NCBI RefSeq assembly: GCF_009914755.1
Contig: NC_060941.1
From: the human T2T-CHM13v2.0 reference genome, Homo sapiens
DNA: 64,000 bases
Reading direction: 5' to 3' (one strand)
Numbering within the stretch: position 1 is the stretch's first letter; each line of letters starts with the position of its first letter. The notes under the pieces are model-generated. The model had not been told where the DNA came from, made no database searches, and saw only the letters and a list, made by a program, of their open reading frames with translations. The position numbers and the translations under genes were made by a program. Shown here piece by piece: positions 8,895 to 21,143 of this stretch.

Positions 8895-11800
8895 CTTTAT
8901 TTATTTATTTATGTATTTTAGAGAGAGGGTCTTGCTCCGTCACACAGGCTGGAGTGCAGTGGTACAATCACAGTTCACTACAGCCCCGACCTCCTGAACT
9001 CAAGTGATCCTCCCACCTCAGCCTCCCGAGTAGCTGCGTCTGGCTAATTAAAAAAGATTTTTTTGAGATGAGGTCTCACTGTGTTGCCCAGGCTGGTCTC
9101 CAACTCGTGGGCTCAAGCAATCTTCTTACCTCAGCCTCTCAGAGCACTGGGATTACAGGCGAGAGCCACCTCACCTGGCCTAACAAGGTATTTAAACACA
9201 ACTTTGAATCTATTTCGTTACTGCAAATTGAAAACAATGAATTGATTCATCAAAACTAAGCAAAGGAACTTAAATATCACTGGGCAAATTAACTTGATTT
9301 GAATCAACTTGTTGCAAATCTAGACCATTGAAGATCAATTATGGCTCAGTCTGCACCTACCACTGGTAGACAAAAGGACACAGTGCCGCCCACTGCCAGT
9401 CCCTCCCAGAGTGACTGAAGGTGGCCACACTGTGCCCACGCAGCCTCTCTCCCACTCACCAAGGGCTGGTTCCCAGCTGCCATCTTGCTGGGGCTCCATG
9501 TAATGCACATTGGCTCCTGAGTTAGTGGATCACATGAGAACTCACACAGGAAGAAATGCATGCAATGTTGATCAAATGAGTGGTCATTTTCTGTTGTTAG
9601 TTGTCACTTCTTGTGGCTATCAAGGTGTTCTGTTCTGTTGCTTATAAGATAAGCCCTTCTGCACACAGTTGTTCTGGGTGAGTGCCTGTCTCTCTTTGCA
9701 ATCAAATGCATGGGCTTTGTGACAGCTACTTGCCACTCAGAGGTCATCTGGTTCATTTAAGTGAGTAGCGTTTGACTGCAAGTGAACGGCTCTTAAATCC
9801 AGGCCCCATGTCTCCCACTCCTCCTGCCCTGCTGCTTTCTACTTCTGCCTGCCCAGGCAGGCCCCTCTGGCTGGAGTGCTGGGTCCCTTCATTCAATCTC
9901 CCTGTTAGAGCCTGTACCCTCATAGAATGTATGGGAAAGACTCTATCCCACACCTGCCTCTGCAAGTCTCCCTGTGTGGGCTGTAACCACACAGGCAGGA
10001 GAGTGACTCAAACTCTCCTGCCAAGATGCCTTGCAAGTTGGGCATGTGGGGGGAAGTCATCATTAAAAATGTTTTTTCTTATAAACCAGGCACAATGGCA
10101 TGTACCTGCAGCACTTAGTAGGTTGAGGTGGGAGGATCCTTGAGCCCAGGAGTTCAAGTCCAGCCTAGGTAACATAGCAAGATCCTGTTCCACCCTCCAA
10201 AAAGTTTTTTCTCTTATAGATGTAACTTCAGAATCTTTGCCACCTCTTCCAGGACTGGAAGGACATAGAGCCCTAACTGTCTTCACTTTTTACTCTAATG
10301 AATGTTTTCTGTTGGGAACCACTACACAAAACATGGAAATGAGACCCATTCCTTAGCTGGCAGGGGATGCACACAGATAATAAAACTGGCAAACAGAACT
10401 CGCTACCTCTGTAGGACAGAGGACCTACATGGTGGGCTGTAGGACAGCCCAGGGGGCTCAGTAATAACAAGTCAGGATTTAGGCTTGGCCCCCAAGTGCT
10501 GTGCCCTGGGCTCCCCACGCCACCACAGACCCCCTTCTAGCCTCTGACACTGTGCCTCCACCAGACACTGTCTGGCTAAACCCTCTGGGTGGGGCAGGGT
10601 ATGTTTGCAGCACCCCTCCCCGCCCTGGCCCAGTGCTGGGCTCAGAACATGCCCTCAGTAAGCCTAGGGGGTTAACTGGCAGTAACTAATCAGGGACTAC
10701 CTCCTTGTAGGAGGAGCTTTCTTTGACTGGAAGGTTAACCCTGGACTCTGTCACCAGCTCCCCAAAGGGCAAAGTTTCTTTCTGCTTCTTTTTCTTTTCC
10801 TTTTTCTTTCTTTCTTTCCTTTTCTTTTTTTGAGACAGCGTTTCACTTTGTCACCCAGGCTAGAGTGCAGTGGTGCAATCATAGCTCACTGCAGCCTCAA
10901 CCTCCTAGGCTTAACCAATCCTCCCACCTCAGCCTCCTGAGTAGCTGGGATTACACATGTGCGCCACCACGCCCAGCTAATTTTTGATTTTTTGTAGAGA
11001 CATAGTTTTGCCATGTTGCCCAGGCTGGTCTCGAACTCCTGAGCTCAAGTGATCTGCCTGCCTCAGCCTCCCAAAGTGTTGGGATTACAGGCGTAAGCCT
11101 CCTCTCCCAGCCTCTGCTTCTTTTTCATTGAATCCCCTGCAGCACCACCACGTGCTCTGCTCTCAGTGCCAGCTCCTTGTTATTCCAGAGCAACTTCAGA
11201 GTAATGGGAGCTGTCGGAATCTGCCTCACTTTTTCACACTTTGCTACTCTGCCCTGACCCTGAATTCACATAGACCCTTTTCCATTTCTTTCAGCACCAA
11301 GAGAGGCAGTGGGGTTGAGGGGAAAGATCTCTGCTTTTGGAGCTAGATGAAACCTGACTCTATCCCTTCTTGGCTGTGTGACCTTGGGAAAGTCATCTGC
11401 CTCTCTGAGCCTTAGTGTCTCCTTTATAAAACAGGGATATAACAGTATCAAGATCCAGGATTGTTGGGAGGACTGAATGTTAATTTATGCGCTACTTTAG
11501 CATCCTACTGGGCATATAGTTGGTCCCCACAAATGCTGATGCTTTCTATCATTCATTCATTCTCCTCCACAACCTCCCCCCAGCCAGGTCCATGGGTCAC
11601 TGACTTTGTTCTCTAGTTTTCTAGGTAACGTTTAGAAAGGCAGGGGACACACCAGGTGCAGTGGCTCACGCCTGTAATCCTAAGACTTTGGGAAGCCAAG
11701 GTGGGTGGATCACATGAGGTCAGGAGTTTAAGACCAGCCTGGCCAACATGGCAAAACCCAGTCTCTACTAAAAATACAAAAATTAGCTGGGTGTGGTGGT

Positions 11801-13021
11801 GTGCACCTGTAGTCCCAGCTACTTGGGAGGCTGAGGTGGGAGAATTGCTTGAACCTGGGAGGCAGAGGTTGCAGTGAGCTGGGATTGTACCACTGCACTC
11901 CAGCCTGGGCAACAGAGCAGGACTAAGTCTGAAAAAAAAAAAAAGAAAAAAAAAAAAAGAAAGAAAAAAGAAAGGGGACATTGTGGAAAGAACATCTCAC
12001 CACTTACCCCTCCCATAACCCTGAATAACCTACTTTGCCCCTTTACGAGCCTCTTTCCTTATCTATAAGAAAGGACTATGGGCCAGGCATGGGGGCTTAG
12101 GCCTGTAATCCCAGCACTTTTGGAGGCTGAGGCAGGAGGATCGCTTGAGCCCAGGAGTTTGAGATCAGCCCGGGCAACATAGTGAGACCTCATCTCTACA
12201 AAAAATTTTTAAAAATTAGCCAGGTATGGTGGTACATGCCTGCAGTCCGAGCTGCTTGGGAGGCTGAGGTTGGAGGATTGCTTGAGCCCAGGAGTTGCGG
12301 GCTGTGGTGAGCCATGATCACTCCAGTGCACTCCAGCCTGAGCAAGAGTGAGACCCTGTCTCAAAAAAAAAAAAAAAAATCCTAACATAGGGCTAGAGGG
12401 GGAAGAAAAACGTGGCTGAATAATGTTTTAAAATGTTAACTTTTTTCTTCTTTCCTTTCCTTCTTGCCATTATTCCTTTCAAGCAGATATTTGGTTCAGG
12501 GGAGGCTGTAAAGAACCCACAAGTCTTTCAGTCTTAGCCTAAGGGGAAGGGGCTTTCAAAGCTGGATGCAGGGTTTTGTTTTGTTTTGTGTTGTGTTGTG
12601 TTGTTCTGAGACAGGGTCTTGCCCTGCCACCCAGGCTGGAGTGCAGTGGCACAATCTTGGCTCACTGCAACCTCCATCTCCCAGGTTTAAGCAATTCTCC
12701 TGCCTCAGCCTCCCGAGTAGCTGGGATTACAGGCGCCCACGACCATGCCCAGCTAATTTTTGTATTTTTAGTAGAGATGGGTTTCACTGTGTTGGCCAGG
12801 ATGGTCTCGAACTCCTGACCTCGTGATCCTCCCACCTCGGCCTTCCAAAATGCTGGAATTACAAGCGTGAGCCACCGCGCCCGGCCAATTTTTATATTTT
12901 TAGTGGAGACGGGGTTTCACCATGTTGGTCAGGCTGGTCTCAAACCCCTGACCTCAAGTGGTCTGCTCACCTCAGCCTCCCGAAGTGCTGGGATTACAGG
13001 TGTGAGCCACTGTGCCTGGCC
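8895..13021. mobile_element. Alu cluster in intron 11 (~8895-9180 -, ~10087-10190 +, ~10800-11112 -, ~11650-11970 +, ~12081-12380 +, ~12575-13021 -), not contiguous
   Basis: Alu consensus in both orientations. Confidence 0.88.
9359..9836. repeat. Long inverted repeat, arm A (intron 11)
   Basis: Reverse complement of 20666-21143; about 18 differences over the ~435-bp core by manual alignment; twin ORFs 9346..9561(-) and 20942..21148(+). Confidence 0.97.
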
Positions 13022-13766
13022 GAGATGCAGGGTATTGAAAAAGGATAAGGGAGAGGAATGTCTCAGACATAGCTACAGAATCCTGGAGGGGGCATGGGAG
13101 AAAGGGAAGAGATTTGAGGCCTAGGACCGGAGGAGCCTGCACAAGGCTTCCTGGGACACCGCCTGGTGCATTCACGGGGATGGACCTCTGGCAGCTTCAA
13201 CCAAGACCCCCAGGCCTCCAGGTAGCAGGGAAGCCCCTAGATTGCAAGACCTGAATAGTCAGGGTGGATGGACAGCTGAGGTGGAATTCCCCATCCATCA
13301 CTCCAGGGCCTGAAAGTGAGAAGTCAGGTGATCATACAGAAAAACAAGGCAGCCTTTCTCTCACGCCTGAGTGTATGGACTGAGTTCATACCTGCTACAG
13401 GGATGAGCCTTTTCAGGTTCTGTGAGGACTGCTATTAAGATTAGCTGAGATAAGGTATATAAAATACCTGGCACTGGCCTGGGCTATTAATTTTTCCCCT
13501 CTTCACAGTGAATTGTCTGTAGCCCTGATGTGGGCCAGTACAGTGGTTAGAGCCCAGGAGTAGAGTTCAAGTTCTAAATCTGGCTCTGCTTCTCACCAGC
13601 AAGTGACCTAAACTGTCTGAACTTCAGGCCCCCTTAGCTATAAAAGGATGGGGCAGTTCCCATCCCATGAGATCATCCCTGTCAGGGACAGAGAGGGGGC
13701 CCCAGAGGGGTGGGTAGCTCTCCTTCCTGGCCTCCTCTCTGCTCCCCTCCTGGGCTCAGAACTTAC

Positions 13767-20325: not shown

Positions 20326-20665
20326 TTAAAAGATGCTCTGGTTGCCCCCAGTGCTTGTTGGGGGCACTCACTGCCCACTCCTGATGTTCGGTCCATGGGG
20401 AGAAAACAGCTCTCCTGGGAGAGAAGAAGTCAAGGCAGAAAGGTCCCATGTGCAGAGCCGAGAGGGGAACGGCCCAGACGTGATCCCAGCAGCAGCCAGA
20501 ACTGCTACCAGGCTGCACAGAGTGAAGGGGCTGGAATTAGTACGAATGAAGAGGGAGCGACAGCTGGGGCCCAGCCTGGGCAGGACAGAGCCAGAGAACA
20601 GAGAGATTAGTGGGACCAGGTTGCTGGAGGGCGCGTGAACCCTTCTGGCACAGGCCAGGCACAGG

Positions 20666-21143
20666 AGCAGCAGGGCAGGGGGCGCAGTAGGCACGGGGGC
20701 TGGATTTAAGAGCTGTTCACTTGCAATCCAGTGCTACTCACTTGAATGAACCAGATGACCTCTGAGCGGCAAGTAGCTGTCACAAAGCCCGTATATTTGA
20801 TTGCAAAGAGAGACAGGCACTCACCCAGAACAACTGTGTGCAGAAGGGCTTATCTTATAAGCAACAGAACAGAACACCTTGATAGCCACAAGAAGTGACA
20901 ACTAACAACAGAAAAATGACCACTCATTTGATCAACATTGCATGTGTTTCTTCCTGTGTGAATTCTCATGTGATCCATTAACTCAGGAGCCAATGTGCAT
21001 TACATGGAGCCCCAGCAAGATGGCAGCTGGGAACCAGCCCTGGGTGAGTGGGAGAGAGGCTGCATGGGCACAGTGTGGCCACCTTCAGTCACTCTGGGAG
21101 GGACTGGCAGTGGGTGGCACTGTGTCCTTTTGTCTGCCGTGGT
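20666..21143. repeat. Long inverted repeat, arm B (intron 8)
   Basis: Reverse complement of 9359-9836. Confidence 0.97.

What the first reader, a model, noticed from the sequence alone, without database searches (positions are those of the whole stretch)
9359..21143. ~480-bp unique-sequence inverted repeat brackets exactly the PSI-domain block (exons 9-11) of PLXDC1
Seen: 9359-9836 is the reverse complement of 20666-21143, 10.8 kb away. By hand, the ~435-bp core has 17 substitutions (15 transitions) and 1 indel (~96% identity), including ~120 identical nt (9587-9707). It resembles no Alu, L1 or LTR that I recognise. Arm B lies in intron 8 and arm A in intron 11, so the enclosed exons are precisely 9, 10 and 11. 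Established: long complementary intronic arms promote exon looping-out, back-splicing and ADAR editing. Inference: this is a dedicated long-range pre-mRNA stem, better matched than typical inverted Alu pairs, acting as a switch on the PSI+stalk module.
Basis: partly seen in the sequence, partly recalled or inferred. Interest (0 to 1): 0.85.

Follow-up and report, generated by a model that had tools for sequence, protein, structure and literature searches.

The report
Two-copy inverted intronic duplication in PLXDC1
Two introns of the human PLXDC1 gene carry a 478-base stretch in opposite orientations that occurs nowhere else in the genome; it could fold the pre-mRNA into a very long double-stranded stem, but it looks like a neutrally decaying local duplication and not a purpose-built splicing switch.

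Summary
Window 9359-9836 is the reverse complement of 20666-21143: 478 nt each, 10,829 nt apart, 28 differences, 94.15% identity. These are the only two copies found in the whole T2T genome. The same search returned 25 matches for a neighbouring old repeat and 2,489 candidates for an Alu. Arm B lies in PLXDC1 intron 8 and arm A in intron 11. The enclosed exons 9-11 total 279 nt, in frame. Exon 9 hits Pfam PSI.

In silico the arms form about 458 bp of dsRNA. Net stabilisation is -617 kcal/mol, against -290 for the best cross-exon Alu pair.

Nothing indicates a dedicated switch:
- The differences look neutral: 21 transitions, 5 transversions, 8 at CpG; CpG observed/expected 0.13-0.16.
- In the PLXDC1 strand the transitions give 8 G·U wobbles and 13 A·C mismatches, so pairing is not preferentially kept.
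- Each arm alone folds like its shuffles.
- No paper found reports a PLXDC1 circRNA, editing cluster or inversion.

Best reading: a small local inverted duplication, roughly catarrhine in age, whose dsRNA-forming capacity is a by-product. Conservation, editing and back-splicing could not be tested here.

The parts
9359..9836 (.). Arm A of the inverted duplication, in PLXDC1 intron 11. It lies 3,930 nt downstream of exon 11 and 1,019 nt upstream of exon 12 in the transcript. It also lies in the RDM1P5 intron 9188-22311.
   Evidence: No Rfam hit. Folds alone like its shuffles, z 0.02.
20666..21143 (.). Arm B, the reverse complement of arm A, in PLXDC1 intron 8. It lies 2,317 nt downstream of exon 8 and 1,272 nt upstream of exon 9 in the transcript. 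It is in the same RDM1P5 intron as arm A.
   Evidence: Folds alone like its shuffles, z -0.66.
9587..9707 (.). Longest stretch identical between the arms, 121 nt (partner 20795-20915).
   Evidence: A run this long was reached in 37 of 5,000 uniform simulations over the whole arm, and in 314 of 5,000 within the first 400 nt.
9759..9836 (.). Diverged end of the repeat. It holds 13 of the 28 differences (K2P about 0.19, against 0.034 for the first 400 nt).
   Evidence: In the scan test, the largest count in any 78-nt window is 14, reached in 7 of 5,000 simulations.
19312..19393 (-). PLXDC1 exon 9, encoding the N-terminal half of the PSI domain.
   Evidence: Pfam PF01437, E 2.6e-5, profile positions 2-24 of 52. 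AG/GT splice sites.
14958..15018 (-). PLXDC1 exon 10, encoding the rest of the cysteine-rich PSI stretch.
   Evidence: Translation. No Pfam hit alone at 20 aa.
13767..13902 (-). PLXDC1 exon 11, encoding an acidic, Ser/Thr-rich stalk segment. Exons 9-11 together are 279 nt, or 93 codons, in frame.
22434..22714 (+). The only full Alu in intron 8. It is the partner for the competing cross-exon Alu pairings with the minus-strand Alus of intron 11 (8921-9179, 10830-11111, 12606-13020).

Best explanation
This is a small local inverted duplication of ordinary intronic DNA. One 478-bp stretch was copied in reverse orientation about 11 kb away inside PLXDC1, and both copies have since decayed like unconstrained sequence.

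The divergence (K2P 0.057 overall) is about that of human-macaque orthologous DNA. That figure and the mutation rates are recalled, so an age of roughly 25-30 million years is inference. It would be older if the better-matched 400 nt were later homogenised by gene conversion.

Both arms lie in one primary transcript on each strand: PLXDC1 pre-mRNA on the minus strand, and a single RDM1P5 intron on the plus strand. They can therefore zip into a hairpin stem of about 458 bp with a 10.8-kb loop.

The expected consequences are by-products and are inferred, not shown:
- promiscuous nuclear ADAR editing of both arms;
- at most a modest push towards looping out exons 9-11, meaning either exon 8-12 skipping (in frame, removing PSI and part of the stalk) or a 279-nt exon 9-11 circle. 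This could occur only in transcripts where intron 8 is still unspliced when arm A emerges.
For: Shown:
- The repeat is real and sharply bounded.
- Only these 2 copies turn up genome-wide, while the controls gave 25 matches and 2,489 candidates.
- No Rfam family matches the arms in a permissive scan of 8000-23000, where all 51 matches lie outside them and most are Alu-type SRP or miRNA-family matches.
- Each arm alone is not a structured RNA (z 0.02 and -0.66).
- Stop-to-stop frames in the arm reach 85 aa at most for frames lying largely inside it; longer frames only clip its end.
- The spectrum looks neutral: 21 transitions to 5 transversions, 8 of 26 substitutions at CpG, CpG observed/expected 0.13 and 0.16.
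- There is no excess of pair-keeping wobbles in the PLXDC1 strand, 8 of 21.
- Duplex capacity: cofold -926.6 kcal/mol, with 458 of 458 pairs intermolecular.

From papers (passages read):
- Structures that loop out exons go with lower exon inclusion, circumscribe circRNAs and are enriched for A-to-I sites (PMC8052449).
- Long, highly paired dsRNAs are rare and mostly intergenic (PMC11838218, section 10).
Against: - No outgroup genome could be consulted. The age, the parent copy and the absence of constraint are therefore inferred from two sequences only.
- The differences are not evenly spread: 13 of 28 fall in the last 78 nt (scan test 7 of 5,000), and there is a 121-nt identical run (37 of 5,000). 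Simple uniform neutral decay does not predict this. It needs gene conversion, error-prone repair synthesis at one junction, or local constraint on the core.
- A non-repeat duplex of this length and match is an outlier. Edited non-repetitive dsRNAs have a median of 144 bp and -185 kcal/mol in PMC11838218 (Table 1). A real effect on RNA processing is therefore not far-fetched.
- No RNA data were available.
Confidence: 0.68

Rival explanations
1. Co-opted element: whatever its origin, the stem now measurably drives back-splicing of exons 9-11 or exon 8-12 skipping, and is a hyper-edited intronic dsRNA. There need not have been selection for this.
For: - It is the strongest complementary pair around these exons by a factor of about two in net energy: -617 against -290 for the best cross-exon Alu pair and about -257 for within-intron-11 Alu pairs.
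- The exon block is in frame at 279 nt.
- Looping-out structures associate with lower inclusion and flank circRNAs (PMC8052449, passages).
Against: - The loop is 10.8 kb, and arm A lies 3,930 nt past the exon 11 donor.
- Intron 8, carrying arm B, can be removed once exon 9 is made, about 9.5 kb of transcription before arm A appears (inference).
- Intron 11 holds at least 5 Alus in both orientations that can pair locally.
- No PLXDC1 circRNA turned up in the full-text searches. circRNA databases and supplements were not seen.
Confidence: 0.2
2. One reading: a dedicated, selected long-range pre-mRNA stem that acts as a regulated switch on the PSI and stalk module.
For: It shares the structural facts above. 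In addition there is a 121-nt perfectly matched core (37 of 5,000 simulations), and the enclosed exons form a domain-sized, in-frame unit.
Against: - There is no wobble bias: 8 G·U against 13 A·C in the PLXDC1 strand.
- The ts/tv ratio and CpG decay look neutral.
- Known functional long-range splicing stems in the literature read are short conserved boxes, not 478-bp duplicates. The fragments scanned for PCCRs have a median length of 17 nt and must lie under 10,000 nt apart (PMC8052449).
- A 458-bp near-perfect stem is far more than looping-out needs, and ADAR would progressively unwind it (established knowledge, recalled).
- No regulator, isoform or paper supports it.
Confidence: 0.04
3. Older duplication with partial gene conversion: the copies are much older than 6% divergence suggests. 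About 19% K2P survives at the 9759-9836 end, and non-allelic gene conversion homogenised the other 400 nt more recently. This concerns history and is compatible with the best explanation.
For: - Divergence is significantly uneven (7 of 5,000 in the scan test): K2P 0.034 for the first 400 nt against 0.19 for the last 78 nt.
- There is a possible further 23-nt remnant beyond a gap of about 70 nt at that same end (0 of 500 shuffles reach its score).
Against: - The numbers are small, 13 differences in 78 nt.
- That end is GC- and CpG-rich, so it may simply mutate faster. By my reading of the list, 4 of its 13 differences are at CpG.
- Error-prone repair synthesis near a breakpoint would give the same picture.
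- The 23-nt match is a common GC-rich, Alu-like string.
Confidence: 0.15
4. Two copies of a transposable element or other dispersed repeat that happen to sit in opposite orientation.
For: - The own-genome search uses a k-mer first look and cannot exclude very old, highly diverged family members (tool text).
- An old interspersed repeat lies about 80 nt from arm B.
Against: - Only 2 of 2 candidates appear genome-wide, even at E up to 10 and with a 201-nt sub-query. The same tool found 25 copies of the neighbouring old repeat and 2,489 Alu candidates.
- 94% identity between just two copies would imply a young family, which should have many near-identical members.
- Read by eye, there are no TG...CA ends, terminal inverted repeats, poly-A tail or target-site duplication.
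Confidence: 0.04

Closest known systems
Intronic complementary sequences that flank circularised or looped-out exons (inverted Alus, and the rarer non-repetitive complementary sequences)
   Same: Reverse-complementary stretches sit in the two introns either side of an exon block. The cross-exon pairing is stronger than the competing within-intron pairings. Published associations link such structures with circRNAs, lower exon inclusion and A-to-I sites (PMC8052449).
   Different: This pair is not a repeat-family member and is longer and better matched than the local Alu pairs: 478 nt at 94%, against 72-83% for the Alu pairs compared. It is much further from the splice sites (1.3 and 3.9 kb) and has a 10.8-kb loop. 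No circle or skipped isoform is documented.
Long, highly paired intramolecular dsRNAs catalogued by dsRNAscan (PMC11838218)
   Same: At 458 of 478 nt paired (95.8% with G·U counted) and over 300 bp, it sits at the edge of their 'long and highly paired' class. That class holds 2,018 of 5,134,754 predictions and is 88% intergenic (section 10).
   Different: Most of that class forms between inverted LINEs. This pair is non-repetitive and genic. Its total span of 11,785 nt exceeds the 10,000-nt analysis window of that scan, so it should be absent from the catalogue. The supplementary tables were not seen.
[quoted passage not shown]
   Same: Intronic, complementary, and looping out exons.
   Different: PCCRs are found in short conserved intronic fragments (median 17 nt) less than 10,000 nt apart. 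Here the arms are 478 nt, 10,829 nt apart, and conservation is untested and probably primate-only.
Small inverted segmental duplications, and inverted repeats that mediate NAHR inversions (for example PMC3961182, search listing and abstract only)
   Same: Two inverted copies on one chromosome with high identity and a 121-nt identical tract. In principle they are a substrate for inversion of the 10.8-kb spacer.
   Different: At 478 bp it is below the usual 1-kb definition of a segmental duplication (recalled). An inversion would flip exons 9-11 and break PLXDC1. No inversion here was found in print.

Membership tests
Exon-flanking intronic complementary sequences (circRNA or looping-out type) | Reverse-complementary sequences in the two introns that flank the exon block, within one transcript | tested here: met
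   Arms lie in intron 8 and intron 11 of NM_020405.5 (supplied annotation). They are 94.15% complementary over 478 nt.
Exon-flanking intronic complementary sequences (circRNA or looping-out type) | Pairing across the exons is favoured over pairing within one intron | tested here: met
   Net cofold gain is -617 kcal/mol for the arms, against -257 and -246 for the within-intron-11 Alu pairs. This is thermodynamics only; kinetics were not modelled.
Exon-flanking intronic complementary sequences (circRNA or looping-out type) | An observed back-spliced circle or skipped isoform of the enclosed exons | not testable with these tools
   No RNA-seq or circRNA database was available. Full-text searches found no PLXDC1 circle.
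ADAR hyper-edited long dsRNA (editing-enriched region) | A long, near-perfect intramolecular duplex | tested here: met
   458 predicted intermolecular pairs and a 121-nt uninterrupted identical tract. This is in silico only.
ADAR hyper-edited long dsRNA (editing-enriched region) | Clustered A-to-G changes in RNA on both arms | not testable with these tools
   No editing database was available. The PLXDC1 + ADAR search gave only gene-list papers (listing and abstract starts seen).
Transposable element or dispersed repeat | Many dispersed copies in the genome | tested here: not met
   2 copies only. Positive controls gave 25 matches and 2,489 candidates.
Transposable element or dispersed repeat | Structural hallmarks: terminal repeats, TG...CA ends, poly-A tail, target-site duplication, TE protein frame | tested here: not met
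   None is seen on reading the ends. Frames lying largely inside the arm reach 85 aa at most. No Dfam or RepeatMasker run was possible.
Conserved complementary regions (PCCR) | Arms less than 10,000 nt apart in conserved intronic regions | tested here: not met
   Spacing is 10,829 nt, against the criterion in PMC8052449. Conservation is not testable here.
Structured RNA gene (Rfam family) | A match to a covariance model, or folding better than shuffles | tested here: not met
   No Rfam match in either arm at E up to 1. z-scores are 0.02 and -0.66.
PSI (plexin repeat) domain in the enclosed exons | A match to PF01437 above the gathering score | tested here: met
   Exon 9 alone scores 24.9 bits against a 23.1 cut-off, E 2.6e-5, profile positions 2-24 of 52. 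Exon 10 (20 aa) gives no hit alone. The spliced protein could not be handed to the tool.

The most novel reading that the evidence does not exclude
A primate-specific, non-transposon intronic duplex of about 458 bp, just too wide (11.8 kb) for the 10-kb windows of the two dsRNA/long-range-structure catalogues read here. On this reading it is one of the strongest non-repeat intramolecular dsRNAs in a human protein-coding gene. It would have real effects: heavy ADAR editing, production of a 279-nt in-frame exon 9-11 circle or a PSI-less PLXDC1/TEM7 isoform, and possibly innate-immune relevance when introns or lariats persist.
Probability: 0.12. Interest if true: 0.6.

Novelty: new member of a known kind. 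Interest (0 to 1): 0.3.

Why it matters
If the stem forms in vivo, it would be a clean, repeat-free natural test case for how far apart and how late in transcription complementary introns can still drive exon looping, back-splicing and ADAR hyper-editing. Alu-based cases are hard to dissect because of the many competing partners.

Skipping exons 9-11 would remove the PSI domain of a tumour-endothelial marker while keeping the reading frame.

If it does nothing, it is still a useful reminder. Long, well-matched intronic inverted duplicates exist outside repeat families, and they can fall outside the 10-kb search windows of current catalogues.

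Tried and rejected
- **Rfam.** A permissive scan of 8000-23000 gave 51 matches, none in the arms; most are Alu-type SRP or miRNA-family matches.
- **Longer duplication.** A sensitive blastn of 7000-12500 against 18000-23500 gave only Alu matches and the 478-bp core. Local alignment of the 200-nt flanks gave nothing on the left (279 of 500 shuffles as good) and only a 23-nt GC-rich match on the right.
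- **Structured RNA in a single arm.** Rejected.
- **Coding or TE frame in the arm.** Nothing notable. The frames were not searched against Pfam.
- **Soft-masking.** The window file is all upper case, so it gives no repeat-mask information.
- **Literature.**
  - PLXDC1 + circRNA: 13 papers hold both terms and 12 were listed. The 3 read by passage mention PLXDC1 only as a miRNA target or a differentially expressed gene.
  - circPLXDC1 spellings: 0 papers.
  - PLXDC1 + hsa_circ: 7 papers, none about a PLXDC1 circle by title or abstract.
  - PLXDC1 + ADAR: 10 papers, gene lists by title or abstract.
  - PLXDC1/TEM7 splice variants and PSI: nothing on exon 9-11 skipping.
  - PLXDC1 + inversion / inverted repeat: none of the 10 listed papers holds PLXDC1; the remaining matches were not seen.
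- **Parent copy.** Which arm is the original could not be determined without outgroup genomes.

Full report

Yes, at the stated coordinates.
- The repeat finder reports two abutting inverted pairs that together run 9365-9836 against 20666-21138, at 96% and 93%.
- blastn joins them into one match, 9359-9836 against 21143-20666, 94.154% over 479 columns, with E 3.6e-174.
- A global alignment lists 28 differences: 21 transitions, 5 transversions and 2 single-base indels. Eight substitutions are at CpG. The longest identical run is 121 nt (9587-9707).
- In a self-comparison of the whole 64-kb window, this is the top pair of 883. It is one of only two pairs with at least 88% identity over at least 150 nt. 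The high-scoring pairs listed below it are 311-360 nt long at 79-87% identity, and their coordinates fall on Alu or masked-repeat stretches.

**2. Is it a repeat family?**

Not detectably.
- The arm was searched against the whole 3.1-Gb assembly that holds the window. It finds itself and its partner and nothing else.
- This held with arm A, with arm B at E up to 10, and with a 201-nt internal piece. Each time the first look produced 2 candidates and both were scored.
- The tool warns that its k-mer first look can miss things, so I ran two controls. The 211 nt next to arm B gave 25 matches on many chromosomes, 83-94% identical over 36-56 nt. I recall that sequence as MIR-like, which is not tested. 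An Alu from intron 8 gave 2,489 candidates.
- The search therefore does see both old and young dispersed repeats, and the arms behave as two-copy sequence.
- Read by eye, the ends show no LTR-type termini, terminal inverted repeats, poly-A tail or target-site duplication.
- A permissive Rfam scan of 8000-23000 has no match in either arm; its 51 matches lie elsewhere and most are Alu-type SRP or miRNA-family matches.
- Each arm alone folds no better than its shuffles (z 0.02 and -0.66).
- Dfam and RepeatMasker were not available.

**3. Where does it sit?**

- By the supplied RefSeq table, PLXDC1 is on the minus strand and the window holds exons 3-14.
- Arm A lies in intron 11 (8340-13766) and arm B in intron 8 (19394-23460).
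- In transcript order the layout is: exon 8, 2,317 nt, arm B, 1,272 nt, exons 9-11 with their introns, 3,930 nt, arm A, 1,019 nt, exon 12.
- All 12 exons have an AG acceptor, and all but the terminal exon are followed by GT.
- Exons 9-11 are 82 + 61 + 136 = 279 nt, or 93 codons. The junction phases match, so skipping or circularising them keeps the frame.
- Exon 9 alone passes the Pfam PSI gathering score (PF01437, 24.9 bits against 23.1, E 2.6e-5, profile positions 2-24 of 52).
- Exons 9-10 carry the cysteine-rich stretch, and exon 11 is acidic and Ser/Thr-rich. 'PSI plus stalk' is therefore a fair description.
- Both arms also lie inside one intron (9188-22311) of the plus-strand transcribed pseudogene RDM1P5.

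**4. Could it form the proposed stem?**

In silico, strongly.
- Cofolding the two arms as PLXDC1-strand RNA gives -926.6 kcal/mol. All 458 pairs are intermolecular. The net gain over the separately folded arms is -617 kcal/mol.
- The three cross-exon Alu pairings give net -290, -253 and -142.
- Two within-intron-11 Alu pairings give -257 and -246.
- The local Alu pairs compared are 72-83% matched, against 94% here.

For scale, from PMC11838218 (passages and section 10 read):
- Only 2,018 of 5,134,754 predicted human dsRNAs are both over 300 bp and over 96% paired. Of these, 88% are intergenic and most form between inverted LINEs.
- Edited non-repetitive dsRNAs have a median of 144 bp and -185 kcal/mol.
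- That scan used 10,000-nt windows. The PCCR catalogue also required arms under 10,000 nt apart (PMC8052449).
- This pair spans 11,785 nt, so it falls just outside both. I did not see their supplementary tables.

**5. Is it a dedicated switch?**

I find no support, and one small test goes the other way.
- With only two sequences, the test available is this. A transition in one arm leaves either a tolerated G·U wobble or an A·C mismatch, depending on which strand is transcribed.
- From the list, 8 of the 21 transitions are G·U and 13 are A·C in the PLXDC1 strand. The reverse holds for the plus strand. The one-sided binomial p for an excess of wobbles is 0.91.
- The ts/tv ratio of 4.2, the 8 of 26 substitutions at CpG, and CpG observed/expected of 0.13-0.16 are what unconstrained, methylated DNA shows.
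- Kinetically, intron 8 with arm B can be spliced as soon as exon 9 is made. That is about 9.5 kb of transcription before arm A exists (inference).
- Intron 11 also holds at least five Alus in both orientations that offer local partners.
- Full-text searches found no PLXDC1 circRNA, editing cluster, exon 9-11 skipping isoform or inversion.

**6. History**

- K2P distance is 0.057 overall. That is about the human-macaque orthologous divergence as I recall it, so a duplication near the base of the catarrhines is the simplest dating (inference).
- The differences are not evenly spread. Thirteen of the 28 lie in the last 78 nt (9759-9836; K2P about 0.19, against 0.034 for the first 400 nt).
- A scan statistic reaches the observed clustering in 7 of 5,000 simulations. 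The 121-nt identical run is reached in 37 of 5,000.
- Possible causes are gene conversion of the core after an older duplication, error-prone synthesis at one junction when the copy was made, a faster-mutating GC/CpG-rich end, or constraint on the core. I cannot separate these without outgroups.
- Which arm is the parent is also open.

**7. Verdict**

The best-supported reading is a sub-kilobase local inverted duplication evolving neutrally (0.68), whose capacity to make long intronic dsRNA is a by-product.

A measurable effect on exon 9-11 circularisation or skipping, or on editing, is plausible but untested (about 0.2). A selected, dedicated switch is unlikely (about 0.04).

It is a new instance of a known kind, namely exon-flanking intronic complementary sequence or inverted duplication. 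It is notable for being non-repetitive, long and well matched, and for lying just beyond the 10-kb limit of the two catalogues read here.

Noticed in passing
window 21226-21355: An old interspersed repeat lies about 80 nt from arm B. It has 25 matches on many chromosomes at 83-94% over 36-56 nt. I recall the sequence as MIR-like; this was not tested against a repeat library.
   Followed up: partly
window 8921-9187: RDM1P5 exon 8922-9187 coincides with a minus-strand Alu (SRP-like Rfam hits at 8921-9020 and 9063-9179). This exon of the transcribed pseudogene therefore looks like an exonised Alu.
   Followed up: no
window 13768-13902 (-): The peptide of PLXDC1 exon 11 gives a weak, sub-threshold Pfam LRRC37 hit (E 0.016, 15.9 bits against a 27 cut-off). 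An LRRC37A pseudogene lies just upstream of the window. The cause is probably acidic low-complexity composition.
   Followed up: no
window 9672-9681 and 9758-9767; partners in 20666-21143: Each arm carries two strings resembling strong 5' splice sites (GGGTGAGT and AAGTGAGT). In arm B they are in the PLXDC1 sense orientation inside intron 8. Pairing of the arms would mask them. No annotated exon uses them.
   Followed up: no
window 9844-9865 vs 20567-20589: A 23-nt match (87%) lies beyond a gap of about 70 nt at the diverged end of the repeat. None of 500 shuffles reaches its score, but blastn gives E 1.8 and the motif is GC-rich and Alu-like. It may be a remnant of a longer original duplication.
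   Followed up: partly
window 12951-13082: Alternative PLXDC1 exons listed in the annotation (12951-13082, 12989-13082) overlap the end of a minus-strand Alu cluster (12606-13020). This may be a repeat-derived alternative exon.
   Followed up: no
window 8000-23000, both strands: PLXDC1 (minus strand) and RDM1P5 (plus strand) overlap over this whole region. If they are co-expressed, intermolecular sense-antisense dsRNA is possible independently of the inverted repeat.
   Followed up: no
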